Positions 21,445 to 53,282 of a stretch of DNA of 64,000 nt are shown here, piece after piece (position 1 is the first letter of the stretch; each line of letters opens with the position of its first letter). The notes below the pieces were generated by a model that ran no database searches, was not told the DNA's origin, and was given only the letters and a program-made list of their open reading frames with translations. The stretch is from an uncultured Acidobacteriota bacterium. GTDB taxonomy: Bacteria; Acidobacteriota; Vicinamibacteria; Vicinamibacterales; Fen-181. Location: NCBI GenBank assembly GCA_963813585.1, contig CAWEZL010000001.1, forward strand, positions 118,056 to 182,055, given 5' to 3'. Position numbers and translations under genes: made by a program.

Positions 21445-22866
21445 CTACTGCCCGAGCGTTCCCCCCACCCACGCCAGGTTCACGCGGGCGACGCGGTAGT
21501 CGCGTTGGGCGCGCGCGAGGTTCGCCCGCGCGGACGACAGGTTCAGCTCGGCGTCCTGCACCTCGAGGCGCGTCTTCACGCCCAGCTCGAACCCCTTTTC
21601 CGCGAGGAAGAGCAGCTTCTCGGCCTGGGCCACCGTCCCGCCGAGGGCTCCCGCGATCTCGGAGGCCTCGCGCACGGCGTTCAGTGCGGTGCGCACCTCG
21701 AGGCGGATCCCGTCGCGCAGCTTCAGCTCGTCGAAGTTCAAGCGCAGCAGGTCGCTCTGCGCCTGCGCCACCTGCCCCTTCGTCCGCCAGCCGTCGAACA
21801 GCGGGATGCTGGCGACCAACCCGGCATTCCAGGCCGTGCCGCGCGCCGAGATGGTCTTGAGACCGAGGCGCCGCTGGCCCCAGCTCGCCGAGAAATCGAC
21901 CCTCGGCTTGCTGGCCGCCTTGGCAATGGTGACCAGCTCGCCGTAGATTCCCTTCGTGCCGACAATCTCGGAAATCTCCGGGCGATGCTCGATGGCGCTC
22001 GCCAGCACCTGCTCGTACGGCGGCGCCGCCTCGATGGTGGTGGCGAGCGAGCCGGCCGCGTCCACCTCGCCCGGCTCGGCAAGCAGGAATCGCAGCTGCT
22101 CGCGCGCCATCCGCACGCCGTTCTCGGCGCGGATGACGGCCGGCCGGCCGTTCTCGACGGCGACCTGCGCCGCCAGCACGTCGTAGTCGGTGGCGGTGCC
22201 GGCGGACTGCCGCTTCAGCGTCTCGTCGAGGTGCCGCTGGCGCTGCTCGAGGTCCTGCCGCGCGATGGCGGCCAGCTCGCGCGCCACCAGCACGTCGTAG
22301 AACGCCGTGGTGACGTCCTTCTCGACGGCCTGCTGGAAGCGCCGCAACTGCTGGTTGGCGACGCCGAACCCGAGCTTCGCCGCCCGGACGGCCGCGCCCA
22401 CCTGGCCCCACGTGAAGACGACCTGGTTGACCGAGAACCCCGCCACCCCCACGTCCTGCCGACCGCCGAAGATGTCGCCGATGCCCGTTTCACCGGAGTT
22501 CCCCTCGTCGGCGGGCATGAAGTCCTTGAAGAGCTTCGTCATCGAGTTGTCGAACGTGCGCGTGTTGCTGACGCTGAGCGTCGCGCGCGGGAGGGCCGCC
22601 CCCCGCTCCTGCACGTAGCGGCCCCGCACCCAGTTCTGGTACTCCCGCGCTTTCTGGATGTCGCGGTTCTGCTCGGCGGCGACGGCGAGCGCCTGCTCGA
22701 GGGTCAGCGTCTTCACCGGGACGCCCGCCTCGGCCTGCGCGGCTTGCGCCGCCTGCGCCGCCTGCTGCCCCAGCGCGACAGCCGGCCGCTCCGCCGCCAG
22801 CATCCCCTCGCGCAGCGTCGAGACGGACTGGCCGAACGCGTCGGCCGGCCCCGCGAACAGGGCCGC
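21445..22866 (-). CDS. TolC-family outer membrane efflux protein (OMF); no stop codon separates it from the upstream RND gene
   Basis: Signal-peptide-like TTALVVAALFAGPADAFG. Two tandem OEP repeats. Possible own start is an in-frame GTG ~22866 after AAGAAGGGG. Lies in the same frame as the RND ORF, giving a 1511-aa continuous ORF 21445..25980. Confidence 0.7.
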   Translation of the reverse strand, partial: AALFAGPADAFGQSVSTLREGMLAAERPAVALGQQAAQAAQAAQAEAGVPVKTLTLEQALAVAAEQNRDIQKAREYQNWVRGRYVQERGAALPRATLSVSNTRTFDNSMTKLFKDFMPADEGNSGETGIGDIFGGRQDVGVAGFSVNQVVFTWGQVGAAVRAAKLGFGVANQQLRRFQQAVEKDVTTAFYDVLVARELAAIARQDLEQRQRHLDETLKRQSAGTATDYDVLAAQVAVENGRPAVIRAENGVRMAREQLRFLLAEPGEVDAAGSLATTIEAAPPYEQVLASAIEHRPEISEIVGTKGIYGELVTIAKAASKPRVDFSASWGQRRLGLKTISARGTAWNAGLVASIPLFDGWRTKGQVAQAQSDLLRLNFDELKLRDGIRLEVRTALNAVREASEIAGALGGTVAQAEKLLFLAEKGFELGVKTRLEVQDAELNLSSARANLARAQRDYRVARVNLAWVGGTLGQ

Positions 22867-25800
22867 GACCACGAGCGCCGTCGTCACGACGGCCGCCGTC
22901 CCCTTCTTGCGGTTCCGCCCGAGCAGCCAGGCGGTGATGTCGTCGAGGATCGAGTACACGACCGGGACGACGATCAGCGTCAGCAGTGTCGAGGTGACCA
23001 GGCCCCCGACGACCGCGCGGGCCATCGGCGCCCGGAACTCGGCGCCCTCGCCGATGGCGAAGAACAGCGGCAGCATGCCGAAGATCATCGCCGTCGTCGT
23101 CATCAGGATCGGCCGCAGCCGCGTGCGGCCCGCGAGGATCAGCGCCTCGCGCCGCTCGTGCCCCCGCGATCGCAGCACCTTCGTGTAGTCCACCAGCAGG
23201 ATTGCGTTCTTGGTCACCAGCCCCATCAGCATGATGAGGCCGATGAGCGACATGATGTTGATCGTGTCGCCGGTCAGCACCAGCGTGCCCGCCATGCCGA
23301 CGACCGCGAGCGGCAGCGAGAACATGATCGCCAGCGGATCCATGAACGATTCGAACTGCGCCGCCAGGATCAGGTAGACGAGGATGATTGCCAGCATCAG
23401 CGCCTCGGCCATGTAGCCGAACGACTCGACCATCATCTCCGTGTCGCCGCCGATCAGCACCTTGTAGCCGGGCCCGAGCTGGATCTTGTCCGCCGCCGCC
23501 TGGGCCAGCGAGCTGGCCGTGCCGAGCGGCAGCTTGTCGAGGTTCGCGTCCACCGTCACCTGCCGCGACAGGTCGCGGCGGTTGATCTCGGCCGGGGAGG
23601 TGGCCCGCGTGAACGTGACCAGGTCGCTGAGGGGCACCAGCGCCACGCCCTGCGCGGAAGGCACGGTCACCTTGAGGTCGCCGATCTGCGACACGCGCGT
23701 CCGCAGCGCCTCGGGGAGCCGGACCCGGACCGCGACCCCCTCGCCCTCCTCGTCCTCGTAGGTGGTGACGGCCTGGCCACCCACGAGCACGCCGACGGTG
23801 TTGGCGACGGCGGCGCTGCCCAGGCCGGTGGCGGCGGCGCGCTCGCGGTCCACGATCAGGCGGTACTCGGGGAGGTCCAGCTCCATCGTCGCTTCGATGT
23901 CCACGATCCCGGGGATCGAGTAGAGTTCCTGCTTCACCCGCGCCGCGTACTGCTTCAGCGTGGTGATGTCCTCTCCCTGGAGCACGACCTGCAGCGGCTT
24001 CTGGAAGGTGTCGACCTCCTCCTGCACCGAGAGGACGACGCCTGGGATCCGCTGGAGGCGCAGCCGCACGTCGTGAACGAAGTCCTTGAGGCCGCGGTCG
24101 CGCTCCTCCTTCGGCACGAGCTTCACGAACACCGTGGCGTCTCGCACCGTGTCGGAATCGCCGGCGCCGATCGAGGCGTACGTGTACCGCACCTCCTTGA
24201 ACTCGGCGAAGGCGCCGAGCACGTCCTCGAGGCGCCCCCGTGTCTCGGCGATCGACGATCCCGGCGCGCTCTTGAACTTCACGACGAACTCGCCCTGGTC
24301 CATGGGGGTCATGAATTCCGTCTGCAGGAGGGTGAAGACCCCCAGCCCGGCGACGAACGCCAGGATCGCGACGGCCGACACGACGAACCGGTGGTCGAGG
24401 GACCACCCGATCACCTTCTTGTAGCCGTTCGCCATCCGCTCGAACCACTCGTTGAACCGGTCGAGCGCGCGCTGCAGGATGTTGCGGCGCCCCTTCCGCT
24501 CGATGTCGGGATCGATCCAGCGCGACGAGAGCATCGGGTCGAGCGTGAACGAGACGAACAGCGAGACGAGCACGGCGAACGCCACGGTCAGCCCGAACTG
24601 GTAGAAGAAGCGCCCGACGACCCCCTTCATGAAGGCGACCGGCACGAAGACGGCGATGATCGACATCGACGTCGCGAGCACCGCCAGGCCGATCTCCGCC
24701 GTCCCCTTCCGGGCCGCCTCGAAGTGGTCTTCGCCCCGCTCGAGGTGCCTGACGATGTTCTCGCGCACGACGATCGCGTCGTCGATGAGCAGGCCGATGG
24801 CCAGCGACAGCGCCATCAGCGTCAGCGAGTTCAGCGTCATGCCCAGGAAGTGCATGACGATGAACGACGAGATGACCGAGATCGGGAGCGTCAGCCCCGT
24901 GATGACCGTCGAACGCCAGGAGTTCAGGAAGCAGAAGACGATGAGGATCGTCAGCAGGCCGCCGAGGATCAGCGTGTTCTGGACGTCGTGCACCGCCTCG
25001 CGGATGAACACCGAGGTGTCGCGCACCACCTGCAGATCCGTCCCCGCCGGCATCTCGGCGCGCAGGAGATCGAGCTCGGCGCGCACGCCGTCCACCACCC
25101 CGACGGTGTTGGCCTTCGTCTGCTTGGTGACGTCGATCGCCACCGCGGGCTGGCCGTCGATGAGCGCCAGCGACCGCGGCTCGGCGATCGTGTCGGTGAT
25201 CGTCGCCACGTCCGCGAGCCGGATCGGCTGCCCCGCCCGGCGGGCGATCACCATGCTCGCGTAGCCGTCCGTGCTGGCCGGCTTCCCGGAGATGCGCAGC
25301 GGCAGCTCGGTGCCGGCGCTCGTCAGGCGGCCGAGCGGCGTGTTCACGTTCTCCGTGGCCAGCCCCGCGACGACCTCGTCCACCCCCATCCCGAGGGCCG
25401 ACAGGCGGGCGGGGTCGAGGTCCACCGCCACCTCGCGCGTCGAGTCGCCCACCAGCTTCGCGCGCGCCACCCCGGGCACCCCTTCGAGCCGGCGCTTCAC
25501 CTTCCGGTCGGCCAGCGTCGTCAGCTCCCGCGCCGAGAGGGTCTTCGAGCGGACCGCGACCGAGATCACCGGCATCGCCTGGAAGTCGAACTTCTGGATG
25601 ACGGGATCGGCCATGTTCGCCGGCAGGTCGCGGCGGATGGCGTTGATCTTCGCGCGGGCCTCCTGCGAGGCGTCGTTGATCTTCACCTCGAGGTCGAACT
25701 CGACGATGATCATCGCCAGGCCTTCGCGCGAGATCGAGTTGACGTGCTTCACCCCGGAGATCGGGTTCAGCGCCTCCTCGATCTTCTTGCTCACCTCGCG

Positions 25801-25980
25801 CTCGACCGTCTCGGGCGAGGCGCCCGGCAGCTCCGCGACGACGGAGAGCACCGGGATTTCCACCTCCGGCATCATGTCCACCGGCAGTCGGCGCCAGGAG
25901 AAGATGCCGAGCGTGACGAGCGTCAGCATCATCACCGTCGCGACGACGGGCCGCTTGATCGACAGGTTCGAGAGGAACAT
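22867..25980 (-). CDS. RND efflux transporter permease (AcrB/MexB/CzcA superfamily), reading through into the OMF gene
   Basis: MFLSNLSIKRPVVATVMMLTLV... 12-TM RND with two large periplasmic loops. The C-terminus ...VPVVYSILDDITAWLLGRNRKK continues in frame into GTAAVVTTALVV... with no stop. Confidence 0.8.
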
Positions 25981-28065: not shown

Positions 28066-30582
28066 ATGCCGCAGCACCAGGACGTCGAGCTGATGGACCA
28101 GGACCCGGCGGCCGGATCCGCGAGAACCGGCGACGAGGGGATCCTCGACGCGTTCCGCCGCTGGGGGTATCTCGAGGCGAACCTCGACCCGCTGGGCTTC
28201 CTCCGGCCACAGCCCCGCCCCGAGCTGGCGGGCGACAGCGAGGCGGCCAGGCGCGGACGCGCCTGGTACAGCGGCTCGATCGGCGTCGAGTACATGCACA
28301 TCCCCGACCCCGAGCGCAGGCGCTGGGTGCAGGAGCGGATGGAGCGGCCGGCGCCCGAGGTCGACCGCGCGGCGATCGTCGACCGCCTGCTGCGCGCCGA
28401 GACGTTCGAGGTCGTCCTGCACGGCCGCTACCCCGGCTCGAAGCGGTTCTCGCTCGAGGGGGTGACCGCGCTGATCCCGCTCCTCGACGAGGTGCTCGAG
28501 ACCGGGGCGGGCCTGGGGCTGCGCGAGGCGCTCATCGGCATGAGCCACCGCGGCCGCCTCAACGTCATGGTCCACATCGTCGGGCGGCCGGCACGAGATG
28601 TCTACGCGGGGTTCGAGGACCCCGACCCGAAGAGCGTGCTCGGCAGCGGCGACGTGAAGTACCACATGGGGGCGACCGGGACCTACCGGACGCGAGGGGG
28701 CACCGAGCTGCGGGTGAAGCTCGTGTCGAATCCCAGCCACCTCGAGGCGGTGTACCCGGTCGCGCTCGGTCGGGCTCGAGCGCGGCAGTCGCGCGAAGGC
28801 GACGGGGCGACCCATCGGATCATGCCAATCGTCCTGCACGGCGACGCCGCGTTCGCCGGCCAGGGGGTCACCGCCGAGGCGCTGAACCTGGCCGACCTTC
28901 CCGGCTACTCCGTGGGCGGCGCCGTCCACGTGGTCGTCAACAACCTGCTCGGGTTCACGACGCCCGACCGCGAGCTGCACGCCTCGCCGTTCGCCACCGA
29001 TCTCGCGCGGCGCCTGCCGATCCCGATCTTCCACGTGAACGGGGAAGATCTGGACGCGGTCGTCCGCGTCGCGCGGCTCGCCGTCGAGTTCCGCTACGCC
29101 TTCGGCACCGACGCCGTGATCGACATGGTGGGCTACCGGCGGCACGGCCACAGCGAGGTGGACGACCCGACGATCACGCAGCCCCTGATGTACAAGGCGA
29201 TCAAGGCCCACCCCGCACTCTGGGAGGTCTACGCCCGGCGGGCCGGCCTGGAAGTCGGCGAGGCCCCCACCCGCGTCCGCAACGAGTACAACCGCGCGCA
29301 GGAGGAAGCGAAGAAGTTCGACGCGCGGGTGGCGCTCGCGCAGCTTCCCGACTACTGGGCGCCGTATCACGGCGGCTGCCACAACAAGGAGTACGAGCTC
29401 GACACCGGCGTCCCCCTCGACGCCCTGCGCGCGCTGACGGCGAAGCTGACATCGTGGCCGGAGGACTTCCACATCCACCCGAAGGTGCGGAAGCTGCTCG
29501 AGCAGCGGGCCGCGATGGTCGAGGGGAAACACCGGCTGGACTACGGCATGGCCGAGGCGCTGGCGTTCGGCACGCTGCTGGCCGAGGGCTACCGCGTGCG
29601 GCTGACGGGCCAGGACAGCGAGCGCGGCACGTTCAACCAGCGGCACGCCGTCCTGATCGACGTGGAGACCGAGCGGAAGTACATGCCGCTCGCGCACGTC
29701 GCGCCGGGGCAGGGAGGCTGCGAGATCTACAACTCGACCCTCTCGGAGGCCGCGGTCCTCGGCTACGAGTACGGCTTCAGCCGCGACTACCCGGAGGCGC
29801 TCGTCCTGTGGGAGGCGCAGTTCGGCGATTTCGCCAACAACGGCCAGGTCATCATCGACCAGTTCCTGAGCGCCGGCGAGGACAAGTGGGGCCTCCTGTC
29901 GGGGCTCGTGCTGCTGCTCCCGCACGGCTACGAGGGGCAGGGGCCCGAGCACTCGAGCGCCCGCATCGAGCGGTTCCTGCAGCTGGCGGCCGAGGACAAC
30001 ATCCAGGTCTGCCAGCCCTCGACCGCGGGGCAGTACTTCCACCTGCTGCGCCGGCAGGCCCTGCGCAAGTGGCGCAAGCCGCTGGTGGTCTTCACGCCGA
30101 AGAGCATGCTGCGCCACGCTTCGTCCTCTTCGCCCGTCGAGGAGCTGACGCGAGGGCGCTTCCACACCGTCCTCGAGGACGACGTGGTCAGGTCGGGGGC
30201 GCGCCGGGTGCTGGTCGGCGCCGGGAAGATCCTCCACGAGCTGCGAGCCGAGCGCGAGCGGCGCGGCGACACGACGACGGCGATCCTCGGCCTCGAGCAG
30301 ATCTACCCGTTCCCGACGACGCCGCTGTCGGCCGCGCTGGCCCGGCACCCCGACGCCCGCGAGGTGGCCTGGGTGCAGGAGGAGCCGAAGAACAACGGCG
30401 CCCACTTCTACGTCGTGCCGCGACTGCGCGCGATCGTGCGGCACAAGGGGGTGCGGTCGGTGAAGCGGCGGGCGTCGGCCAGCCCGGCGACCGGCTCGGG
30501 CAAGGCACACCTGCTCGAGCAGCAGGCGCTGCTGGCGCTCGCCTTCGCCTCGAGCGGGGAGACGGACGAGCAGCCTCGTTGA
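28066..30582 (+). CDS. sucA: 2-oxoglutarate dehydrogenase E1 component (short form)
   Basis: ThDP-binding signature GMSHRGRLNVMVHIVGRPARDVYAGFED. ...HGDAAFAGQG. Transketolase-like C-terminal domains. 838 aa. Confidence 0.9.
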   Translation: MPQHQDVELMDQDPAAGSARTGDEGILDAFRRWGYLEANLDPLGFLRPQPRPELAGDSEAARRGRAWYSGSIGVEYMHIPDPERRRWVQERMERPAPEVDRAAIVDRLLRAETFEVVLHGRYPGSKRFSLEGVTALIPLLDEVLETGAGLGLREALIGMSHRGRLNVMVHIVGRPARDVYAGFEDPDPKSVLGSGDVKYHMGATGTYRTRGGTELRVKLVSNPSHLEAVYPVALGRARARQSREGDGATHRIMPIVLHGDAAFAGQGVTAEALNLADLPGYSVGGAVHVVVNNLLGFTTPDRELHASPFATDLARRLPIPIFHVNGEDLDAVVRVARLAVEFRYAFGTDAVIDMVGYRRHGHSEVDDPTITQPLMYKAIKAHPALWEVYARRAGLEVGEAPTRVRNEYNRAQEEAKKFDARVALAQLPDYWAPYHGGCHNKEYELDTGVPLDALRALTAKLTSWPEDFHIHPKVRKLLEQRAAMVEGKHRLDYGMAEALAFGTLLAEGYRVRLTGQDSERGTFNQRHAVLIDVETERKYMPLAHVAPGQGGCEIYNSTLSEAAVLGYEYGFSRDYPEALVLWEAQFGDFANNGQVIIDQFLSAGEDKWGLLSGLVLLLPHGYEGQGPEHSSARIERFLQLAAEDNIQVCQPSTAGQYFHLLRRQALRKWRKPLVVFTPKSMLRHASSSSPVEELTRGRFHTVLEDDVVRSGARRVLVGAGKILHELRAERERRGDTTTAILGLEQIYPFPTTPLSAALARHPDAREVAWVQEEPKNNGAHFYVVPRLRAIVRHKGVRSVKRRASASPATGSGKAHLLEQQALLALAFASSGETDEQPR

Positions 30583-30628: not shown

Positions 30629-31192
30629 ATGCCGGCATGGCTTGAAGTGTCACAGTTCACCGTGTTCCTCGCGCTGGCGGCGGCCGGCTTCACGGTGCTG
30701 CTGGTCTCGCTCGTCTTCGGTGAGCTGTTCGACCACGTCGGGTTCGACCACGACGCCGATCACGATCTCGGGCACGGCGGCCCGAGCTTTCTCAGCGCCC
30801 GGGTGATGAGCGTTTTCGTCACGACCTTCGGCGGGGCGGGCGCCCTCGCGACCTACTACGGCCTCTCGCCGCTGCCCGCCTCGCTCACGGGGTTCCTGAC
30901 CGGCATCTTCTTCGCGTCGCTCATCTACACGTTCGCCCGGTTCCTCTACGGGCAGCAGGCCAGCTCCGAGGTGCGCGGGTCCGAGCTCGCCGGCCGCCAC
31001 GGCCGCGTGATCGTCGCGATCCCGGCGGGCGGCGTCGGCCAGGTGCGCTGCCAGGTCGGCGAGGATCTGGTGGACAAGATCGCCCGCTCGTCGGACGGCC
31101 TCGCGCTCCCCGAGAACACTGGCGTCGTCATTGTCGAGATGCTCGGCGAAATGGTGGTGGTGTCGGCGGCGCCGGCAGTCAAGCAGGGCTGA
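30629..31192 (+). CDS. NfeD-family membrane protein (OB-fold, flotillin-associated)
   Basis: N-terminal TM helices plus C-terminal OB-fold (RGSELAGRHGRVIVAIPAGGVGQVRCQVGEDLVDKIARSSD). Lies immediately upstream of the flotillin gene. Confidence 0.75.
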   Translation: MPAWLEVSQFTVFLALAAAGFTVLLVSLVFGELFDHVGFDHDADHDLGHGGPSFLSARVMSVFVTTFGGAGALATYYGLSPLPASLTGFLTGIFFASLIYTFARFLYGQQASSEVRGSELAGRHGRVIVAIPAGGVGQVRCQVGEDLVDKIARSSDGLALPENTGVVIVEMLGEMVVVSAAPAVKQG

Positions 31193-31219: not shown

Positions 31220-32782
31220 ATGCTGGGCGAGATCCTGCTGATCCCGATCGTCGTCGTCGTCGTGGCGCTCTCGGTGCTGATCGCGGGGCTGCTCTTCAGC
31301 CGCAACTACATCAAGGTTTCGCCCAACGTGGTCGCCGTGCTGAGCGGGCGCAAGCGCAAGCTCCCGGACGGGCGCGTGGTGGGCTACCGGATGGTGAAGG
31401 GGGGCGCGGCGCTCCGCATCCCGCTGCTCGAGAAAGTCGAGTACCTCTGGCTGAACGTGATGACGATCCCGCTGGAGATCCGGCGGGCGTACACGCTGAA
31501 GGGCGTGCCGGTCTCGGTGAAGGCGGTGGCCAACGTGAAGATCCGCAGCGACGACACGTCGCTGCAGGCGGCCGCCGAGCGCTTCCTGGGCATGACGCAC
31601 GACCAGATCCAGCAGGTGATCTTCCAGACGCTCGAGGGGCACCTCCGGTCGATCCTCGGCACGCTGACGGTCGAGGAGATCAACAACGACCGCCAGAGCT
31701 TCGCGCAGAAGCTGACCAGCGAGGCGGCGGCCGACCTCGAGAAGATGGGCCTCGGCGTGGACGTCCTGACGATCCAGGAGATCAGCGACGAGGAGGAGTA
31801 CCTCAACGCCCTCGGCAAGCGGCGCACCGCCGAGGTGAAGCGCGACGCGACGATCGGCGAGGCCGAGGCGACGCGCGACGCCAAGATCAAGTCGGCCGTC
31901 GCCCTCCAGGAGGGCGAAAAGGCGCGCTTCGCGGCCGAGGCCGAGATCGCGCTGGCGCAGCGCGACTTCATGGTCCGGCAGGCGCAGTACCAGGCCGAGG
32001 TCGAGACGCAGAAGGCGACCGCCGCGCAGGCCGGCCCGCTGTCCCAGGCCAAGGCGCGCCAGGGGGTCGTCGCCGAAGAGGTGAAGGTCGAGCGCCAGCG
32101 CACGCAGGAGCTGATCTCGGTCCAGGAGCAGGAGGTCCTGCGCAGGCAGAAGGAGCTCGAGGCGACGGTCATCAAGCCGGCCGAGGCCGAGCGGCAGGCG
32201 GCCATCGTGCGAGCCGAGGCGACCAAGCAGGCCTCGGTGCTCGAAGCCGAAGGGCGCCGCGCCGCGCTCATCGCCCTGGCCGAGGCGGAACAGGAGAAGC
32301 TGCGGAAGGAGGGCATCGGCCGCGCTGCCGCGGTCGAGGCGGAAGGCCTCGCCGAGGCGGCGAAGATCGAGGCGGTCGGCCTGGCGCAGGCGAAGGCGAT
32401 CGAGGCCCAGGGCGTCGCCGAGGCGACGGCCATCCTCCGCAAGGCCGAGGCCTGGCAGCAGTTCAACGACGCGGCGAAGCTCCAGACCATCCTCGAGAAG
32501 CTTCCCGCGATCATCGAGGCGTCCTCCGGCGTGTTCGGCGCGGTGGCGGCGCCGCTCGGCAACATCGACAAGCTCGTCGTGATCGACCAGGGCGCCGCAG
32601 GCAACGGCGCCGCGACCGGCATGGAGCGGCTCGCGCGGGTGAGCCCCGCGCTCGTCTTCAACCTCCTGCAGCAGCTGCAGGCGCTCGGCCTCGACGTGCC
32701 GACCGTGCTGCAGCAGCTGGGGGTGCGACCGGCGGCCGTCTCGCCGGCGCCCGCGGGCCCGACCGTGCTGCCGCCCGCGTGA
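31220..32782 (+). CDS. flotillin-like SPFH/band-7 protein
   Basis: N-terminal TM, SPFH domain, long EA-rich coiled-coil flotillin region (AEAEIALAQRD...AEAERQAAIVRAEA...). 520 aa. Confidence 0.85.
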   Translation: MLGEILLIPIVVVVVALSVLIAGLLFSRNYIKVSPNVVAVLSGRKRKLPDGRVVGYRMVKGGAALRIPLLEKVEYLWLNVMTIPLEIRRAYTLKGVPVSVKAVANVKIRSDDTSLQAAAERFLGMTHDQIQQVIFQTLEGHLRSILGTLTVEEINNDRQSFAQKLTSEAAADLEKMGLGVDVLTIQEISDEEEYLNALGKRRTAEVKRDATIGEAEATRDAKIKSAVALQEGEKARFAAEAEIALAQRDFMVRQAQYQAEVETQKATAAQAGPLSQAKARQGVVAEEVKVERQRTQELISVQEQEVLRRQKELEATVIKPAEAERQAAIVRAEATKQASVLEAEGRRAALIALAEAEQEKLRKEGIGRAAAVEAEGLAEAAKIEAVGLAQAKAIEAQGVAEATAILRKAEAWQQFNDAAKLQTILEKLPAIIEASSGVFGAVAAPLGNIDKLVVIDQGAAGNGAATGMERLARVSPALVFNLLQQLQALGLDVPTVLQQLGVRPAAVSPAPAGPTVLPPA

Positions 32783-32806: not shown

Positions 32807-34540
32807 CTAGGGGCCGCCCTCGATCCGCACGCGCAGCGCACGGATCTCGTGCGCGAGGGATTCCAGCTCCGCCTGCATCGCGGTGAGCTTCGCGTGCTCG
32901 GCGCGCACGAAGCGCGAGTAGGGCGCGATCGCCTCCTCGACCCGCTGCCGCCCGCGCGCCATCTCGCGCTCGAACTCCGTCCGGAGCGCGCGCACCAGGT
33001 TCTGGCGGAGCGCGGTCACCTTCGCGCGCATCTCCTCCTTCGCACGCCTGCGCCGCGCCGGCAGGATGAAGAAGCCGATCGCCGCCAGCACCCCCGCCAT
33101 CAGGATGCCGGTCACGTCGGCCGCCGCGCTCGTGGCCGCCAGCGAGACGACGGTGCCCAGCCCCAGCGCGCCCGCGCCGACGGCGGCCGAGGCGGCGACC
33201 GCGTTGCGCGCGCCGTCGGCCAGCTCCTGGGCCTCGCGAGCCTTGTCGTAGCCCTCGACCACGCGCTGCGCCTCGCGGCCAACCGAGTCGATCAGGCGCG
33301 AGCGGTCGGCGTGGAACGCCGTCGAGGCCGGGTCGCCGAGAATGCGATCCCGGTGCTGCCGGCGCCGCTCCGCCAGCTGCTCCGTGACCGCCTGCCACTG
33401 CCGGAAGTCGGCGTTCACCAGCCAGTCGATCAGCTCCCCGACCTTCCGCTCGACGAGCTGCGGTGCGTCGGCCACCACCTCGCGCCCGAACGCCTGCTCG
33501 ATGCGGCTGCGGTTCAGGAGGTCGAGCACGCGCCCGATCCGCAGCGTGTCGTCGAAGTACCGGTGGCCGCGCTGCTCCATGTCCACCAGCGTCTTCTCGA
33601 TGTCCGCCATCCGGAACGCGACGTCGCGCGCCATGTCGGCGCGGTACACCTCGAGCTGCCGGTCCACCTCCCCCAGCGCCTCGAGGTCGTCCTGCAGCAG
33701 CGCAAGGCGCGAGGCCGCCTGGGCCTGCTGCGCCTCGAGCAGGTGCGCCGCCACGCCGAGCGGGCTCAGCAGCTTCAGGCGCAGCCGGCTCTCTTCGTCG
33801 AGCGTCTCCGTCACGTAGCGCTCGAGCGCCTCGAAGCGGCTGCCGCCCCACAGCCGCGGCTCGCCGAGCTTCGCCCGCAGCGCCAGGCGGGCGCTCACCG
33901 GGAAGACCTCCGGGGTGCTCCCGAGCAGCTCGGTGGCGTGACGCGCGACGAACGCCCGGACCTCGACCACCTCCTCCTCGCGCTCGAGGATGTCCACCTT
34001 GTTGATGACCACCACGACCTTCTTGCCCCAGTCGCGGATTCGCTCGAGGAAGACGCGCTCGGTCTCGGTGAACGGCCGGTCGGCCGACGTCACGAACAGC
34101 ACGAGGTCGGCCCGCGGCACGAAGCGCGCGGTGATCACCTCGTGCTCGCGCATGATGGCGTTGGTCCCCGGCGTGTCCACGATCTGGATGTCGCGCAGCA
34201 TCTCGACCGGCGCCGTGACCGCGTAGAAGTGTTCCTCGACGGGCACCCGGGCGATCTGTTCGCCGTAGCGCAGCACCTCGACCTCGGTGGTCGTCGGGGT
34301 CACTCCCTCCTTCAGCACCTCCGCGCCGAGCAGCGCATTGACGAAGGCGCTCTTGCCGGCATTGAACTCGCCCACCACGACCAGCAGGAACAGCTCGTCG
34401 AGCTGCGCAATCGACCGCTCGAGCGTCCGCTCGCCCTCGGGGTCCGCACCGTGCCGCGCCAGCGTGGCGCGCAGGTCGCCGAGGACGCGCCGCTCCTCCC
34501 TCAGTACCGCGTCGCGCTCGGGCGTGAGGATTCGCTTCAT
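32807..34540 (-). CDS. bacterial dynamin-like GTPase
   Basis: G1 GEFNAGKSAFVNALLG, G3 DTPGTN, G4 NKVD. Long helical stalk and a predicted membrane-insertion paddle (VGAGALGLGTVVSLAATSAAADVTGILMAGVLAAIGFFIL). Start ATG 34540 lies 21 nt after the FAAL stop. Confidence 0.8.
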   Translation of the reverse strand: MKRILTPERDAVLREERRVLGDLRATLARHGADPEGERTLERSIAQLDELFLLVVVGEFNAGKSAFVNALLGAEVLKEGVTPTTTEVEVLRYGEQIARVPVEEHFYAVTAPVEMLRDIQIVDTPGTNAIMREHEVITARFVPRADLVLFVTSADRPFTETERVFLERIRDWGKKVVVVINKVDILEREEEVVEVRAFVARHATELLGSTPEVFPVSARLALRAKLGEPRLWGGSRFEALERYVTETLDEESRLRLKLLSPLGVAAHLLEAQQAQAASRLALLQDDLEALGEVDRQLEVYRADMARDVAFRMADIEKTLVDMEQRGHRYFDDTLRIGRVLDLLNRSRIEQAFGREVVADAPQLVERKVGELIDWLVNADFRQWQAVTEQLAERRRQHRDRILGDPASTAFHADRSRLIDSVGREAQRVVEGYDKAREAQELADGARNAVAASAAVGAGALGLGTVVSLAATSAAADVTGILMAGVLAAIGFFILPARRRRAKEEMRAKVTALRQNLVRALRTEFEREMARGRQRVEEAIAPYSRFVRAEHAKLTAMQAELESLAHEIRALRVRIEGGP

Positions 34541-34559
34541 AGGGGTTCGCAATGGATGT

Positions 34560-36317
34560 TCAACGCTTCCCTGCCAGCCTCGCTCGAAGGAAAGCCCAGG
34601 CCGACCGGGTGATGGCGCCGGCCACCCGCGGCGCCGTCACGGGCGCCGGCGGCCGCAAGGCACCGGACCGGTGCTGCCGGAGGGCCGCCGTGCGACGCAG
34701 TTTACCCGATGAGGTGCGCGGCAGCGTGCCCGCCGTCAGGACGACGACCTCGTCGGGCACCAGGGCCGTTCGCTCGACGATGGCGATCGAGCACGCGGCG
34801 GCGATCGCCGCGAACCCGCTGGCGGGGGTCCCCCGCGTCGCCTCGACCAGCACCATCAGCCGCTCGCCGTCCGCACCCTCGGGCAGCCAGCTGACCGCGA
34901 CCACGCACCCGGCGCGCACACCCGGCACCCCCTCGACCGCCAGCTCGACCTCGACCGGGTCGTGGTTGCGCCCCCTCAGGAGCAGGATCTCGCGCAGCCG
35001 CCCCGCCAAGTACAGGTCGCCCCGCCAGGTGAAGCCGAGGTCGCCGGTCCGGAGCCAGCCATCGCGCCACGCGTCCGAGGTCGCCTCCGGCTTCCCGTAG
35101 TATCCCTCCATCGTCGATGGCCCGCGGCACTCGACCTCGCCGACGAACCCCTCGGACAGGGCGCGCCCGTCCTCTCCGGCGATGCGGATCTCGACGCCTG
35201 GGATGGGCCGGCCGACCGAGACGATCTCCCTCCCCTCGTCGACTGGCCGCGCCACCCCGTCCAACTCGAGGGCGTCGCGGTCGAAGCGGCACGATCTGAA
35301 CCCGAGGCCCGGCTCGCTGAACGTGACGGCCAGCGACGCCTCGGAGAGACCGTAGACGGGCGTCAGCGCCCGCTCCTCGAACCCCCAGCGGGCGAAGCGA
35401 CTCGCAAACCGCCGCAACACGTCCGGGACGACCGTCTCGGCGCCGCACAGCGCCACGCGCCACGCCGACAGGTCCACGCCGTCCAGATCCTCGTCGCGGA
35501 CCCTCGCGGCCGCCAGGCTGTAGGCGAAGGTGGGCGCCGGCGAGATGGTCGCACGGTAGGTGGAGACAGCGCGCAGCCAGACGGCCGGTGATGCGACGAA
35601 CGCCTCCGGCGGGATCAGGGTGATGGTCCCGGGCCTCTCGAGCGCGGGGAACAGGCAGCCGATGAGCCCCATGTCGTGGTAGAGCGGAAGCCAGCTCACC
35701 CCGGAGTGGACGACGCCCTCGCCGTCGGGCCAGAAGGCGTTCAGCGCGATCGCCTGGCTCACGACGGCGCGGTGGGACAGCGCCACCGGGTGCGGGTCGC
35801 GCGTCGTCCCGGAGGAGAACTGGATCAGCGCAAGGTCGCAGGGGGCGGGAACGCGGGCGGGTGCCTCGCCGGCCGGGAGGTCGTCCGGCGTCAGGCAGCC
35901 GAGCGGTGGACGCCCTCGCCGGGTGGCTTCCCCCAGCAGCCTTCGCACGCCCCGGTCCGCGAGGATCATCCGCGCCTGGACGGCCTCGAGCAGGCGCGCC
36001 GCCTGGGCGTGGTACTCGTCCAGTCGCCCGAGGCGTACCGGCGGGTACATCGGGACGGGCACCGCCCCGGCCGCAATGGCGCCGAAGAAGGACTCGATGA
36101 AGGGCGCCCCCGTCGGAAAGATCAGCGCGACCCGATCGCCCGGCGCCACGCCCGCGGCCCGAAGACCGCCAGCCACCGCGAGCGACCTGCGCCAGACCTC
36201 GGCCCACGGCAGCCACACCGCGGGCGCGCCGCCCCGGCCCAGCACGCGCACGCCGGTTGTCGCGCTGTCCGCCGCCCGGCGCAGCAGGTCAACGAGCGTC
36301 GGGACTTCGCCCTGCAC
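34560..36317 (-). CDS. fatty acyl-AMP ligase (FAAL; AMP-binding superfamily)
   Basis: AMP-binding motifs: IQFSSGTTRDPHPVALSH, YGLSEA, TGDLG..., ...SSGKLRR. Confidence 0.85.
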   Translation of the reverse strand: MQGEVPTLVDLLRRAADSATTGVRVLGRGGAPAVWLPWAEVWRRSLAVAGGLRAAGVAPGDRVALIFPTGAPFIESFFGAIAAGAVPVPMYPPVRLGRLDEYHAQAARLLEAVQARMILADRGVRRLLGEATRRGRPPLGCLTPDDLPAGEAPARVPAPCDLALIQFSSGTTRDPHPVALSHRAVVSQAIALNAFWPDGEGVVHSGVSWLPLYHDMGLIGCLFPALERPGTITLIPPEAFVASPAVWLRAVSTYRATISPAPTFAYSLAAARVRDEDLDGVDLSAWRVALCGAETVVPDVLRRFASRFARWGFEERALTPVYGLSEASLAVTFSEPGLGFRSCRFDRDALELDGVARPVDEGREIVSVGRPIPGVEIRIAGEDGRALSEGFVGEVECRGPSTMEGYYGKPEATSDAWRDGWLRTGDLGFTWRGDLYLAGRLREILLLRGRNHDPVEVELAVEGVPGVRAGCVVAVSWLPEGADGERLMVLVEATRGTPASGFAAIAAACSIAIVERTALVPDEVVVLTAGTLPRTSSGKLRRTAALRQHRSGALRPPAPVTAPRVAGAITRSAWAFLRARLAGKR

Positions 36318-37044
36318 GCTTCCTCCGGATCATCGACACCAGGTCGCCCACCGTCTCGAGGCTGGCCTCGTCGTCGAGCGCCACCCGGAAGCGGCTCTCG
36401 ATCTCGACGATCAGGGTCAGTTGACGGAGCGAGTCGAGCGCGAGCGCGGCCGCCAGCGGCATGTCCCGCGACAGCGCGCCGTTCCAGCCCAGGTGCGTCC
36501 GGGCGACCTCGGCCACGCCGGCCAGGATCTCCGATTCCTCGAGCAGCCGCTCCTCGGCGGGGATGCGCACGCGCGTGAGCAGCAGCGCGTTCGCGAGGCT
36601 GAAGACCAGTGCCGTGAGCCAGGCCGTGTGGACGAGCGGCAGGGCCGCGATCTCCACAGCCACGGCCATGTAGTTGGGGTGGCGAACCCAGCGAAAGGGA
36701 CCGGACCTGACGGTCGGGTCGCCCGGCACGTAGAGGACGCGCGTGGTCCAGCGGCCCTGGAGCGCGTGGATCACCCAGTACCGCGCCCCCTGCGACGCCA
36801 GCACCAGGCCGAGCATGGGGATGCCGACCGCCGGGATCCACGGACGATCGAACCGCCAGACCTCGAGGGGGCATGCGGCGAGGAACGCCCCGTGCAGAGC
36901 CACCATCGCCGGGTAGTGCGAGCGCCCGGCCTCGATGGCACCGCGGGCGCGCGCCCGCCTCGCGTTGCGGGCCGAGATGACGAGTTCGATCACCCGCTCG
37001 ACGGCGACGGCGGCCACGAGCCAGGCGTAGGCCCCTACCCCCAT
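36289..37044 (-). CDS. isoprenylcysteine-carboxyl-methyltransferase-family (ICMT) membrane methyltransferase fused in frame to an acyl-carrier-protein-like domain
   Basis: ICMT motifs RSGPFRWVRHPNYMAV...EE. C-terminal ~75 aa ACP-like with DSL phosphopantetheine-site motif (LAAALALDSLRQLTLIVEIESRFRV). No stop or start between the two parts. Confidence 0.7.
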   Translation of the reverse strand: MGVGAYAWLVAAVAVERVIELVISARNARRARARGAIEAGRSHYPAMVALHGAFLAACPLEVWRFDRPWIPAVGIPMLGLVLASQGARYWVIHALQGRWTTRVLYVPGDPTVRSGPFRWVRHPNYMAVAVEIAALPLVHTAWLTALVFSLANALLLTRVRIPAEERLLEESEILAGVAEVARTHLGWNGALSRDMPLAAALALDSLRQLTLIVEIESRFRVALDDEASLETVGDLVSMIRRKRAGRSPDAR

Positions 37045-38088
37045 TGCAGCAGCACCAGCTCGCTGCAGAATCCCGGCCCCATCGCCACCATCAGACCGTA
37101 TGCCCCCGGCGGAGGCGCGGCCTCCCGCATGACGTCCTCCAGGACGAGGAGGATCGACGCGGACGACAGGTTTCCGGCCTCGCGCAGGCTGCGCCAGCTC
37201 GCCTCCAGCGCGTGGTCGTCGAGGCCGAGCGCCTGCTGCATCGCCTCGAGCACCTTCGGCCCGCCGGGGTGCGACACCCAGAACCGGATGTCGGCCCGTG
37301 TCAGTCCCTGCGCGGCCAGGAAGCCGTCCACGTCGCGCGGCAGCTTCTCCATCACGACTGCCGGAACGTCCGGCGACAGGACGATGCGAAAGCCGGACTC
37401 GGAGATTGACCAGCCCATCACGTGCTCGGAGTTCGGGTAGAAGACCGAGCGCGTGGCCACGATGCGCGGCCCCGCGGCGTCGCGCCCGTCGCCCGTGACG
37501 ACCGCGGCGGCGGCCCCGTCGCCGAAGAGCCCCGTCGCAATGAGGTTCGGAACAGAGAGGTCTTCACGCTGCAGGGTCAGCGAGCAGAGTTCGACCGACA
37601 GCAGGACGGCCACCTCGTCGGGGCGTCCCCGCAGCAGGTCGGCCGCGCGCGAGAGACCAGCCGCGCCGGCAACACACCCGAGCCCGAAGATGGGCACCCG
37701 ACGGACGTGGGCCGGGAGGCACAGGCGGTTCACGAGCCGCGCGTCGAGCGACGGCGTCGAGATGCCGGTGACCGACACGAAGACGATCGCGCCCACGTCG
37801 CCGGTCTCGAGGCCCGCCGCCGCGAGCGCGTCGCGGATCGCCACGGCGCCAATCTCTTCGCCGACGCGAATCCACGCGTCGTTGGCCTGGCCCCAGCCCT
37901 GGAGTCGATCGGTACTCCTCGATCGGCAGGGCGAGGTGGCGCCCGCCGACGAGCACGTTGCGGTGGAGTTGCTCGAGGCGATCGAGGTTGTAGTGGCGTC
38001 GCGCCCAGGCCCGCTTGAAGGCGGAGATGAGCGTGGCCTGATCGTAGTAGTGCGGCGGGAAGGCCCGCCGCACGGCGGCAATTCGCAC
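37035..38088 (-). CDS. type III polyketide synthase (chalcone/stilbene synthase family), with one +1 frameshift (~37905)
   Basis: N-term VRIAAVRRAFPPHYYDQATLISAF...ALPIEEY in one frame. Then DRLQGWGQANDAWIRVGEEIG...CLPAHVRRVPIFGLGCVAGAAGL...GFRIVLSPDVP...PGFCSELVLLQW in the other. An extra C after TAC at the junction. GTG start. Confidence 0.75.
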
Positions 38089-51777: not shown

Positions 51778-51867
51778 GGAGAGATGGCCGAGTGGTTGAA
51801 GGCGCACGCTTGGAAAGCGTGTGTAGGGGAAACTCTACCGAGGGTTCGAATCCCTCTCTCTCCGCCA
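51778..51867 (+). tRNA. tRNA-Ser (anticodon GGA)
   Basis: GGAGAGA acceptor stem. Anticodon arm CACGC-TTGGAAA-GCGTG. Long variable arm. T-arm GAGGGTTCGAATCCCTC. 3' GCCA encoded. Confidence 0.9.
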
Positions 51868-51868
51868 C

Positions 51869-52808
51869 CTAAGTCATTCTACCGATTGGGCTTCGCGATC
51901 TCGGTGGAGCCCGTCTCCAAAATGTCTCCACGCTCGCGGCGCCGATCCAGCAGCCGCACCGCTGTTCCAGCGCCGCCGGGCTCAGGTGCATGTACCGCTG
52001 CGTGGTCGTCAGGTCCTGGTGTCCGGCCAGTTCCTGAATCGCCCGCGCCGGCGCGCCCCGCATCGCAAGGTGCGAGCAGAACGTGTGACGCAGGATGTGC
52101 ACGCCGTTGTTGAAGAGGCCCGCTCGCCTGGCGGCTCGACGCACGCAGACCTTGAACCTGGCCTTCGCGTGAGCGGCGTCCCGTCGTCCTGGCAGAGGAC
52201 AAGCGGGCCCCGCAGGTGACGGTGGTCGCGAAGCGCCGCCAGCGAGCCTGGCGGTCAGCGGCACGTAGCGAAGGCGGCCGCCCTTCGGAGCGGCGACCTG
52301 CCCCTTCCACTCGGAACGCTGCACGCACACCTGCCGCTTCACGAGGTCGACGTCGGTCCACTCCAGCGCCATCATCTCTCCGAGCCTCAGTCCGGCTTCG
52401 CCGCCGACATCAGCACGAGGAGGTATGCCCGGGGATCCGTTTCCTTGGCCGCCTCGACGAGCCGCTCGTACTCGTCGAAGTCGTAGAACCGCGTCGAGCG
52501 TTTGGCACCGGCAGCAGCTTGATCGTGCACGGCATCCGCTCGATCACGTCCCACTCCACCGCCTTCTTCAGCAGCACGTTCAGCACCGTCAGGACGTTGT
52601 TGACGGTCTTCGGCGCCTTCTCGAGCAGGCGGTGCTTCAGCCGCTGCACCTCTTCGTTGACGATCGCATCCAGTCGCCTCGCACCCAGCGCTGGCGCGAG
52701 GTGCACGCGGACGATCATCTCCTTCGCCGCGATGCCGCTCGGCTTCTGCCGGTTGGCCCGCGCGTGGCCGTCGAGGAACCGCGGCGCGAACGCTACGAGC
52801 GTGGGCAC
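51869..52808 (-). pseudogene. tyrosine-type site-specific integrase, two frameshifts
   Basis: N-term SAM-like domain (AVEWDVIERMP), middle (RFYDFDEYERLVEAAKETDPRAYLLVLMSAA) and catalytic C-term (TGLRLGEMMALEWTDVDL...HILRHTFCSHLAMRGAPARAIQELAGHQDLTTTQRYMHL) lie in three different frames. Confidence 0.75.
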
Positions 52809-53026
52809 CTCCTTCCGTGGGTTCTGCGGCGCGGCTCACAGTCGCTCGAGGAGGTGCGCTCGCGGTCTTCAGCCCACCTGAGGGCCGCGGTTCTCGACGA
52901 CACCGGCGCCTTGCAGCGCTCTCAGTCGCCGCGCGCCGTCGGGCGAGCCGGATGCGGATGTCCACCTCCCAGCCGCCCACGCGATACGGTCGGACTTGTG
53001 ACGCTCATCGCCATCTACTCCTCTGG

Positions 53027-53282
53027 CGATGACGCGCGCTTCTGGTCCAGCCAGTGTAGCAGGTCGTCGGCGCGGAACAGGACGCGCCGGCGGATCCGGA
53101 TGACGCCCGGCAGCTTGCCGGCGCTCGATCATCGCGTAGATCGCGCGCCGGCTCGTGCGCAGCAGGTCGGCAGCTTCGTCCACAGTCAGAAGGACCGGCA
53201 GCGATCCTCCCGTTTCCCGTTGATCGTGGAGCTCCGGTGCCGAGCGGTTCGCGCGTCGGAAGACGGTCGCCATGCCGTTCAC
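53027..53282 (-). CDS. AlpA/excisionase-family HTH DNA-binding protein, one +1 frameshift
   Basis: LLTVDEAADLLRTSRRAIYAMIER | GKLPGVIRIRRRVLFRADDLLHWLDQ split across two frames by an extra C. Confidence 0.55.

What the first reader, a model, noticed from the sequence alone, without database searches (positions are those of the whole stretch)
32807..38088. ftp/srs-like phenolic-lipid gene set (type III PKS, ICMT methyltransferase, ACP, FAAL) co-transcribed with a dynamin-like GTPase and abutting NfeD/flotillin
Established: Myxococcus ftpABCDE and Streptomyces srsABC use a fatty acyl-AMP ligase plus ACP to prime a type III PKS that makes alkylresorcinols or alkylpyrones. These products are then O-methylated by an ICMT-family membrane methyltransferase. 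All four functions are present here on one strand (38088 to 34560). The next gene on the same strand, 21 nt later, is a bacterial dynamin-like GTPase with a membrane paddle. Convergent 24 nt away lies a NfeD/flotillin pair. This suggests that production of a methylated phenolic lipid is coupled to membrane remodelling or microdomain proteins. That would be an unusual functional linkage and is inference only.
Basis: partly seen in the sequence, partly recalled or inferred. Interest (0 to 1): 0.7.

Follow-up and report, generated by a model that had tools for sequence, protein, structure and literature searches.

The report
Phenolic-lipid operon beside a bacterial dynamin
This is an ordinary ftp/srs-type phenolic-lipid gene cluster of a soil acidobacterium that sits directly upstream of a widespread bacterial dynamin-like gene only in one shallow clade, so the proposed coupling of lipid synthesis to membrane remodelling is not backed by comparative genomics.

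Summary
On the minus strand lie a type III PKS (37035-38088), an ICMT methyltransferase fused in one ORF to the ACP (36289-37044), a FAAL (34560-36317) and, 19 nt later, a 577-aa bacterial dynamin-like protein (DLP, 32807-34540). An NfeD-like/flotillin pair converges 24 nt away.

The organism is a Vicinamibacterales acidobacterium. The PKS carries one extra C at 37911, next to a GATC. Three other sequencing runs with identical or 99.5%-identical DNA or protein give an intact 350-aa PKS. The frameshift is therefore most likely an assembly artefact.

The PKS-set/DLP adjacency holds in five or more close lineages (DLP at least 81% identical), once with a 4-nt FAAL/DLP overlap. Outside that clade it disappears. 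Only 1 of 80 DLP-anchored species loci has the PKS set, and that one belongs to the clade. None of 80 PKS-anchored loci has a DLP.

The canonical fifth gene is a FAD monooxygenase (14 of 15 loci), which this clade lacks. Flotillin follows the DLP in only 3 of 68 loci.

Verdict: a lineage-specific variant of a known cluster. Co-transcription is plausible. Functional coupling is unproven.

The parts
37035..38088 (-). Type III polyketide synthase (alkylresorcinol/alkylpyrone synthase type). It reads as 350 aa once one extra C at 37911 is removed.
   Evidence: Pfam Chal_sti_synt_N and Chal_sti_synt_C. The repaired protein is 99% identical to the intact 350-aa P0121. The Cys138, His273 and Asn306 columns are invariant in 19 homologues.
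37907..37912 (-). Frameshift site: an extra C (37911/37912) immediately 5' of a GATC on the coding strand.
   Evidence: Alignments with L002 and L006. Five of the 13 differences from the 99.5%-identical L006 lie on the G of GATC (p about 3e-6). Three other runs give an intact 350-aa PKS.
36289..37044 (-). Single 251-aa ORF: an ICMT-family membrane O-methyltransferase (Pfam domain about 36538-36816) fused to an acyl carrier protein (about 36295-36528, with the DSL serine at residues 204-206).
   Evidence: Pfam ICMT at E 2e-28. PP-binding scores 20.6 bits against a 20.8 cutoff. NCBIfam ACP models match residues 169-243. The C-terminal part is 58% identical to the stand-alone ACP of L008. The same fused ORF is found in L002, L006, L169, L173 and L175-177.
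34560..36317 (-). Fatty acyl-AMP ligase (FAAL), 585 aa. It overlaps the ICMT::ACP ORF by 29 nt.
   Evidence: Pfam AMP-binding at E 1e-58. The NCBIfam top hit is NF006624 'fatty acyl-AMP ligase', 411 bits, below the 600 cutoff. The PDB top hits are FAALs 7r7f, 3pbk, 3kxw, FadD23 and FadD32.
32807..34540 (-). Bacterial dynamin-like protein (DLP), 577 aa: an N-terminal GTPase, a helical stalk, a hydrophobic hairpin at residues 447-494 and a C-terminal long helix. It starts 19 nt after the FAAL stop.
   Evidence: Pfam Dynamin_N. G1, G3 and G4 motifs and hydropathy. AF2 model with pLDDT 80 and pTM 0.70. Foldseek top hits are BDLP 2j68, IniA 6j72, Cj-DLP 5owv and LeoA 4aur. The profile also matches these PDB sequences.
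31220..32782 (+). Flotillin (SPFH/Band_7) protein, 520 aa, with an N-terminal membrane anchor. It is convergent with the DLP across a 24-nt gap.
   Evidence: Pfam Band_7 at E 3e-27. NCBIfam FloT model scores 326 bits, below its cutoff. One hydrophobic segment at residues 5-23.
30629..31192 (+). NfeD-like membrane protein, 187 aa, upstream partner of flotillin.
   Evidence: Profile support is sub-threshold only: Pfam NfeD E 0.14 at residues 119-178. The precomputed hit on the orthologue is 'NfeD_TM (weak)'. Its position upstream of flotillin is conserved in L009, L014, L021, L169 and L175-177.

Best explanation
The window comes from a Vicinamibacterales acidobacterium. It carries a four-function, three-gene phenolic-lipid operon of the ftp/srs type.

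Proposed pathway:
1. The FAAL adenylates a fatty acid and loads it onto an ACP. Here the ACP is fused to the C-terminus of the ICMT-family membrane methyltransferase, so it is tethered at the membrane.
2. The type III PKS extends the acyl-ACP starter with malonyl-CoA to an alkylresorcylic acid, alkylresorcinol or alkylpyrone.
3. The ICMT domain O-methylates the product.
4. The FAD monooxygenase of canonical clusters is absent. The end product is therefore expected to be a methyl ether, not a quinone.

In the ancestor of one shallow clade, this operon, minus its monooxygenase, came to lie directly upstream of a pre-existing, widely conserved single DLP gene. The DLP's own function (membrane fission, fusion or repair, as for DynA and IniA) does not depend on the PKS set. 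The DLP is probably read through from the operon's promoter in this clade.

The adjacency is best explained by shared descent within the clade, not by a general functional module. The flotillin/NfeD pair is a separate convergent unit.

Shown: gene identities, the ICMT::ACP fusion, the taxonomic limits of the adjacency, and the canonical fifth gene.
Inferred: the chemistry, co-transcription, and the DLP's role.
For: Gene identities.

The canonical architecture is PKS-ICMT-ACP-FAAL-FAD monooxygenase. It is seen in L008 and in 14 of the 15 PKS-anchored loci that extend past the FAAL. L173 carries the same ICMT::ACP fusion and still has the monooxygenase, with no DLP. Literature: srsABC is PKS, ICMT methyltransferase and monooxygenase (PMC6669644). 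The M. xanthus cluster has synthase, methyltransferase, AMP-ligase and monooxygenase, and a homologous cluster was already reported in an acidobacterium (PMC5006271).

No monooxygenase homologue lies in the 64-kb window.

The DLP family is widespread and usually unlinked to the PKS set. The search scored 8000 hits. The 80 species loci span Vicinamibacterales, Thermoanaerobaculia and Chloroflexota, and only L009 has the FAAL upstream. On a DLP tree the PKS-linked loci form one clade whose sisters, L171 and L004, are unlinked. No PKS-anchored locus holds a DLP (0 of 80).

Within the clade the arrangement is conserved and tightly packed: 19 nt in the window and L169, a 4-nt overlap in L175-177, and 124 nt in L002.
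Against: Within the clade the packing is operon-like, including a 4-nt overlap. The DLP occupies exactly the slot of the lost monooxygenase. That would also fit recruitment of the DLP into the pathway.

In other lineages the DLP often follows a different lipid-modifying gene. A fatty-acid desaturase is the nearest upstream gene in 13 of 56 loci. This hints at a recurrent link between lipid enzymes and the DLP, which pure chance adjacency does not predict.

No expression data or chemistry is available. The PKS reading frame is broken in this particular assembly.
Confidence: 0.68

Rival explanations
1. This is a genuine functional module. In this clade the DLP, possibly together with the neighbouring flotillin/NfeD, was recruited to handle membranes enriched in methylated phenolic lipid. 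It might act in domain formation, vesiculation or resting-cell envelope remodelling, and is co-regulated with the lipid's synthesis.
For: The genes are on the same strand with a 19-nt gap and no convincing terminator. Relatives have a 4-nt FAAL/DLP overlap. The arrangement is kept in five or more lineages down to 81% DLP identity. The DLP sits in the slot of the lost monooxygenase. DLP orthologues elsewhere often follow a fatty-acid desaturase. A DynA-flotillin genetic interaction is known in B. subtilis (PMC3551649, PMC8144471).
Against: None of 80 PKS-anchored loci has a DLP. Only 1 of 80 DLP-anchored loci has the PKS set, and it belongs to the same clade. The whole surrounding region (TolB-like gene, sucA, TetR-RND) is syntenic at this evolutionary distance, so conservation of the adjacency needs no selection. 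Flotillin is missing in L002 and is convergent, so it is not co-transcribed. The DLP has the same length and architecture as its unlinked orthologues.
Confidence: 0.17
2. The PKS is a true pseudogene in this strain. The cluster is decaying and makes no product, so any coupling is moot here.
For: The +1 C at 37911 is present both in the window and in the near-identical ENA contig L001. The gene caller there produced only a 269-aa truncated PKS.
Against: It is the only lesion in 350 codons. The catalytic triad and all downstream genes are intact. L006, 99.5% identical in DNA, reads through. Two further runs that encode the exact same ICMT::ACP protein have an intact 350-aa PKS. The site abuts a GATC, and differences between these assemblies are strongly concentrated on GATC (5 of 13 differences on 1.9% of positions, p about 3e-6). 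This is typical of motif-linked base-calling error. The record names are in Flye style (contig_NNNN). The window also has a homopolymer length difference at 38134 against both other assemblies.
Confidence: 0.2

Closest known systems
Myxococcus xanthus ftp cluster (FtpA type III PKS, methyltransferase, ACP, FAAL, monooxygenase; Hayashi et al. 2011, cited via PMC5006271 and PMC10896814)
   Same: A FAAL plus ACP prime a type III PKS. An ICMT-family methyltransferase lies in the same operon. The gene order is PKS-MT-ACP-FAAL. Orthologous clusters are common in Acidobacteriota.
   Different: The methyltransferase and ACP are fused into one 251-aa ORF. The terminal FAD monooxygenase is missing from the locus and from the 64-kb window. 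A dynamin-like GTPase gene follows the FAAL instead.
Streptomyces griseus srsABC (type III PKS, ICMT-type O-methyltransferase, flavoprotein monooxygenase; PMC6669644)
   Same: A type III PKS paired with an ICMT-family methyltransferase, making methylated phenolic lipids that end up in the envelope.
   Different: The srs cluster uses acyl-CoA starters and has no FAAL or ACP. It includes the hydroxylase SrsC, which is absent here.
Bacterial dynamin-like proteins: Nostoc BDLP (2j68), M. smegmatis IniA (6j72), Campylobacter DLP1/2 (5owv), B. subtilis DynA
   Same: A Dynamin_N GTPase with G1-G4 motifs, a helical neck and trunk, and a membrane-inserting hydrophobic hairpin. The fold matches at Foldseek E 1e-14 to 1e-10.
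   Different: Only 13-17% sequence identity. It is a single 577-aa gene, not a tandem DLP pair or a DynA-type fused double. The hairpin is followed by a long C-terminal helix. Global TM-scores are low (0.3-0.45) because the stalk conformation differs. No biochemical data exist.
B. subtilis NfeD-flotillin operons (yuaF-floT, yqeZ-floA) and the DynA-FloT genetic interaction (PMC3551649, PMC8144471)
   Same: An NfeD-like gene lies directly upstream of an SPFH/flotillin gene, with a DLP gene close by.
   Different: Here the pair is convergent with the DLP. The adjacency is seen in only 3 of 68 orthologous loci outside the window's closest relatives. NfeD assignment is sub-threshold.

Membership tests
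Type III polyketide synthase (chalcone/stilbene synthase superfamily) | N- and C-terminal thiolase-fold domains of the CHS/STS family | tested here: met
   Pfam PF00195 and PF02797 score above their cutoffs. The protein is 57-99% identical to thousands of annotated alkylresorcinol/alkylpyrone synthases.
Type III polyketide synthase (chalcone/stilbene synthase superfamily) | Cys-His-Asn catalytic triad | tested here: met
   GLGCVAG, SHPGGP and GNLSS are present in the repaired protein. The C138, H273 and N306 columns are invariant in 19 homologues.
Type III polyketide synthase (chalcone/stilbene synthase superfamily) | Uninterrupted reading frame | tested here: not met
   There is one extra C at 37911 in the window and in L001. 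It is probably an artefact, because the PKS is intact in L006 and in two runs with an identical neighbouring protein.
ftp-type FAAL/ACP-primed phenolic-lipid cluster | PKS, ICMT-type methyltransferase, ACP and FAAL co-oriented in one cluster | tested here: met
   The genes overlap or abut: a 10-nt PKS/ICMT overlap and a 29-nt ICMT::ACP/FAAL overlap.
ftp-type FAAL/ACP-primed phenolic-lipid cluster | Terminal FAD-dependent monooxygenase (the FtpE/SrsC function) | tested here: not met
   tblastn with the L008 monooxygenase finds nothing in the 64-kb window. The monooxygenase is present in 14 of 15 orthologous clusters that extend past the FAAL, and in L173.
ftp-type FAAL/ACP-primed phenolic-lipid cluster | Product is an alkylresorcylic acid, alkylresorcinol or alkylpyrone derivative | not testable with these tools
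   This needs heterologous expression and LC-MS.
Fatty acyl-AMP ligase (FAAL) | Adenylate-forming fold that is closer to FAALs than to acyl-CoA ligases | tested here: inconclusive
   The best NCBIfam hit is 'fatty acyl-AMP ligase' NF006624, but at 411 bits it is below the 600-bit cutoff. The best PDB sequences are FAALs (7r7f, 3pbk, 3kxw, FadD23, FadD32, FadD28). I did not examine the FAAL-specific insertion.
ICMT-family methyltransferase | ICMT domain above the Pfam gathering score, in a membrane protein | tested here: met
   PF04140 scores 99 bits against a cutoff of 24. Hydrophobic segments lie at residues 7-25 and 130-160.
Acyl carrier protein | PP-binding fold with the DSL serine | tested here: met
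   The DSL motif is at 204-206. The segment is 58% identical to the stand-alone cluster ACP. NCBIfam ACP models match at E 3e-7. Pfam PP-binding is marginal, 20.6 bits against a 20.8 cutoff.
Bacterial dynamin-like protein | Dynamin-type GTPase domain with G1-G4 motifs | tested here: met
   PF00350 scores 83 bits. GEFNAGKS, DTPG and NKVD are present.
Bacterial dynamin-like protein | Helical stalk plus a membrane paddle or hairpin; BDLP-like fold | tested here: met
   AF2 model with pLDDT 80. The top Foldseek hits are BDLP, IniA, Cj-DLP, LeoA and mitofusin. The hairpin at 447-494 is hydrophobic but modelled with low confidence.
Bacterial dynamin-like protein | GTP-dependent membrane binding and remodelling | not testable with these tools
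   This needs a biochemical assay.
Conserved functional gene neighbourhood (PKS set + DLP + flotillin) | Adjacency that recurs across phylogenetically distant genomes | tested here: not met
   Only 1 of 80 DLP-anchored loci has the PKS set. None of 80 PKS-anchored loci has a DLP. Flotillin follows the DLP in 3 of 68 loci. The linked loci form one clade.
NfeD | NfeD C-terminal OB-fold domain | tested here: inconclusive
   Pfam PF01957 gives only E 0.14 and 12.9 bits. There is no NCBIfam hit. Synteny with flotillin supports the assignment.

The most novel reading that the evidence does not exclude
In this Vicinamibacterales clade the DLP may have been recruited as the fifth, non-enzymatic member of the phenolic-lipid operon, taking the slot of the lost monooxygenase. 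Under this reading it remodels or repairs membranes loaded with methylated alkylresorcinol or alkylpyrone. More broadly, this DLP family would act as a partner of membrane-lipid-modifying enzymes: a desaturase in most Vicinamibacterales, the PKS set here.
Probability: 0.1. Interest if true: 0.6.

Novelty: new variant of a known kind. Interest (0 to 1): 0.3.

Why it matters
If the coupling were real, it would be the first case of a bacterial dynamin dedicated to a specific lipid pathway. It would also give a handle on the still unclear physiological roles of both bacterial DLPs and phenolic lipids.

As the evidence stands, the value is more modest.
1. It documents a clade-specific variant of the ftp cluster: a membrane-tethered ACP through an ICMT::ACP fusion, and no hydroxylase. 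This predicts methyl-ether rather than quinone products in uncultured soil Acidobacteriota.
2. It shows that the apparent PKS pseudogene is most likely a motif-linked long-read artefact. That is a caution for annotating such MAGs.
3. It turns up a broader desaturase-DLP synteny that may be a better lead on DLP function.

Tried and rejected
- Literature on the fifth ftp gene. I looked for a direct description. Hayashi 2011 and Nakano 2012 are not held. I relied on secondary descriptions (PMC5006271, PMC6669644, PMC10896814) and on orthologous loci.
- Clustering raw ORFs around the DLP. It was swamped by spurious high-GC ORFs. I replaced it with GC3-guided gene picking plus Pfam.
- A GC3 phase scan for other frameshifts in the window. 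It was not reliable. One 'suspicious' stretch, 13.8-15.3 kb, turned out to be an intact plus-strand gene, so I draw no conclusion about the window-wide error rate.
- A programmed frameshift at 37911. I rejected this: there is no slippery heptamer, and relatives read straight through.
- A terminator between FAAL and DLP. The only candidate is a weak 5-bp stem inside the FAAL 3' end, no better than the shuffled expectation.
- A second DLP or a monooxygenase elsewhere in the window. None was found.


Full report
**What is in the sequence**

The region has about 72% G+C. I separated real genes from spurious ORFs by composition and by profile matches. The minus strand holds four tightly packed genes.

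- A type III PKS (37035-38088).
- A 251-aa ORF (36289-37044) with an ICMT methyltransferase domain.
- An adenylate-forming enzyme (34560-36317).
- A 577-aa dynamin-family GTPase (32807-34540).

The plus strand carries a small membrane protein (30629-31192) and an SPFH/flotillin protein (31220-32782). These converge on the GTPase with a 24-nt gap. Upstream of the PKS, and divergent from it, lie a TolB-like beta-propeller gene, a hybrid histidine kinase and a CheR gene.

Homologue names place the organism in Acidobacteriota, order Vicinamibacterales.

**Corrections to the observation**

The ACP is not a separate gene. Residues about 173-250 of the ICMT ORF are 58% identical (E 4e-28) to the 91-aa stand-alone ACP of a canonical cluster. 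They match NCBIfam ACP models and carry the DSL serine.

The same single ORF of 251-253 aa is found in Illumina-type and other assemblies of relatives. The fusion is therefore real. About 100 of the 120 best ICMT hits are stand-alone proteins of 165-207 aa. A few remote lineages have similar fusions.

The FAAL call is reasonable. The best NCBIfam family is 'fatty acyl-AMP ligase', and the best solved relatives are FAALs. It scores below the curated cutoffs.

The 'NfeD' label rests on a sub-threshold profile hit (E 0.14) and on conserved position upstream of flotillin.

The GTPase is a bona fide bacterial dynamin-like protein.

- It has a Dynamin_N domain.
- It has G1, G3 and G4 motifs and a hydrophobic hairpin at residues 447-494.
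- Its AlphaFold model (pLDDT 80, pTM 0.70) best matches BDLP, IniA, the Campylobacter DLP pair, LeoA and mitofusins.

**The PKS frameshift**

The frame breaks at one extra C, at 37911/37912: 'GAGGAGTACCGATCG'. An 81%-DLP relative reads 'GAGGAGTA-CGACCG'. Removing the C gives a 350-aa protein with the Cys-His-Asn triad.

A near-identical ENA contig (L001) shares the extra C. Outside one error-ridden patch in sucA, L001 differs from the window by only about 20 SNPs in 15 kb.

Three lines of evidence point the other way.

- A 2.5-kb contig from another run, L006, is 99.5% identical in DNA. It lacks the extra C and encodes an intact 350-aa PKS.
- Two further runs encode the exact ICMT::ACP protein of the window next to an intact 350-aa PKS.
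- Five of the 13 differences between L006 and the window fall on the G of GATC. That position class covers 1.9% of the sequence (binomial p about 3e-6). The frameshift abuts such a site. An indel between L001 and the window at 39472 is GATC against GAATC.

This pattern fits motif-linked base-calling error, probably at a methylated GATC in long-read assemblies. The ENA records carry Flye-style contig names. That last point is my inference.

I put about 80% on an artefact or a strictly strain-private lesion. In either case the lineage's PKS has been under purifying selection.

**Is the PKS-DLP-flotillin linkage conserved?**

*Starting from the DLP.* A scan of one genome per species returned 80 orthologous loci, 52-88% identical. 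They come from Vicinamibacterales, Thermoanaerobaculia, Chloroflexota and a few others.

- tblastn with the window's proteins finds the FAAL/PKS set upstream in only one locus, L009 (88% identical). Sixty-four loci have at least 2 kb upstream.
- Flotillin/NfeD lies downstream in three of the 68 loci with at least 2 kb downstream: L009, L014 and L021.

Individual look-ups fix the boundary.

- Relatives with 89%, 88%, 83% and 81% DLP identity have PKS-ICMT::ACP-FAAL-DLP.
- Those at 74% and 72% identity have a GH127 gene, or a TonB fragment plus a hypothetical gene, upstream instead.
- On a neighbour-joining tree of the DLPs, the linked loci form one clade whose sister taxa are unlinked.

*Starting from the PKS.* Eighty metagenomic loci, 57-86% identical, contain no DLP at all.

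- Of the 15 loci that continue at least 500 nt past a full FAAL, 14 have a FAD-dependent monooxygenase as the next gene.
- Another 24 have PKS followed directly by the monooxygenase.

The canonical order PKS-ICMT-ACP-FAAL-monooxygenase is seen in a 452-kb contig. It matches the literature description of the M. xanthus and S. griseus clusters (PMC5006271, PMC6669644, PMC10896814).

L173 carries the ICMT::ACP fusion at 57% identity. It still has the monooxygenase and has no DLP. The fusion is therefore older than the DLP adjacency. The window's clade lost the monooxygenase, and none is found in the 64-kb window.

**Reading of the evidence**

The adjacency is real, and within the clade it looks operonic.

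- The FAAL-DLP gap is 19 nt here and in L169.
- It is a 4-nt overlap in L175-177, and 124 nt in L002.
- There is no convincing terminator.

The whole neighbourhood (TolB-like gene, sucA, TetR-RND) is also syntenic at this evolutionary distance. Conservation of the adjacency is therefore what descent alone predicts. Neither partner shows the association anywhere else. Flotillin is convergent, it is missing in one clade member (L002), and it is rare next to DLP orthologues.

Its stated refutation criterion, related genomes with the genes unlinked, is largely met.

**Most likely mechanism (inferred from the named families)**

1. The FAAL activates a fatty acid and loads it on the ACP, which is tethered to the membrane through the ICMT fusion.
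2. The PKS condenses malonyl units to an alkylresorcylic acid, alkylresorcinol or alkylpyrone.
3. The ICMT domain O-methylates it at the membrane.
4. Without the hydroxylase, no quinone is made.

The DLP most likely has the generic membrane fission, fusion or repair role described for DynA and IniA (PMC8144471). In this clade it is probably co-expressed by read-through.

**A residual hint for the novel reading**

The nearest upstream gene of the DLP is a fatty-acid desaturase in 13 of 56 loci. A homologue of that desaturase lies upstream on the same strand in 18 of 80 loci, spread over the main Vicinamibacterales clade and two Chloroflexota. The DLP therefore tends to sit behind lipid-modifying genes. 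This could reflect a membrane-homeostasis theme. I did not test it further.

**Novelty and score**

The gene set is a known kind. Homologous ftp-like clusters were already noted in an acidobacterium (PMC5006271). The ICMT::ACP fusion, the loss of the hydroxylase and the DLP in the fifth position make it a lineage-specific variant. Interest is low to moderate, 0.3.

Noticed in passing
Loci L012, L014, L018, L026-L029, L034, L045, L051, L061, L065, L066, L068, L077, L041, L010, L040 (upstream of the DLP at about 10001): A fatty-acid desaturase (PF00487) is the nearest upstream same-strand gene of the DLP in 13 of 56 loci. A homologue lies upstream in 18 of 80, across Vicinamibacterales and two Chloroflexota. 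This DLP-lipid-enzyme synteny is broader than the PKS one.
   Followed up: partly
window 28194-30443, compared with L001 12097-14384: The near-identical ENA contig L001 has about 40 single-base indels and about 120 SNPs relative to the window. They are confined to the sucA gene, which is intact (838 aa) in the window. This is a local low-quality patch in that public assembly.
   Followed up: yes
window 36137, 37407, 37788, 37910, 38043, 39472: Differences between near-identical assemblies concentrate on the G of GATC (GATC against AATC or GAATC). This suggests a GATC methylation motif that causes systematic long-read base-calling errors.
   Followed up: partly
window 21445-25980 (-): A 1511-aa ORF. 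The precomputed Pfam hits on its orthologues combine an RND pump (ACR_tran) with an outer-membrane factor (OEP) domain. It lies downstream of TetR and MFP genes. This would be an unusual pump/OMF fusion.
   Followed up: no
window about 51800-64000: Third-codon-position G+C drops to 0.64-0.79, against more than 0.9 elsewhere, and the called ORFs are short and sparse. This is a compositionally atypical stretch, possibly acquired DNA or poorly assembled.
   Followed up: no
L175 11482-13215, compared with L176 and L177: In one of three near-identical scaffolds the DLP gene is split into 77-aa and 489-aa products. It is intact (577 aa) in the other two. This is either strain-level inactivation or an assembly error.
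   Followed up: no
Proteins P0253, P0255, P0262, P0314: ICMT::ACP fusions of 273-299 aa also occur at only 42-49% identity. The fusion may have arisen more than once, or be old.
   Followed up: no
L002 1606-3912; L007 9404-9904; L175 7454-7933: Relatives carry a DUF1440/DUF6789 membrane protein between the TolB-like gene and the PKS. L002 also has c-type cytochromes there. The window has only 65 nt at this position.
   Followed up: no
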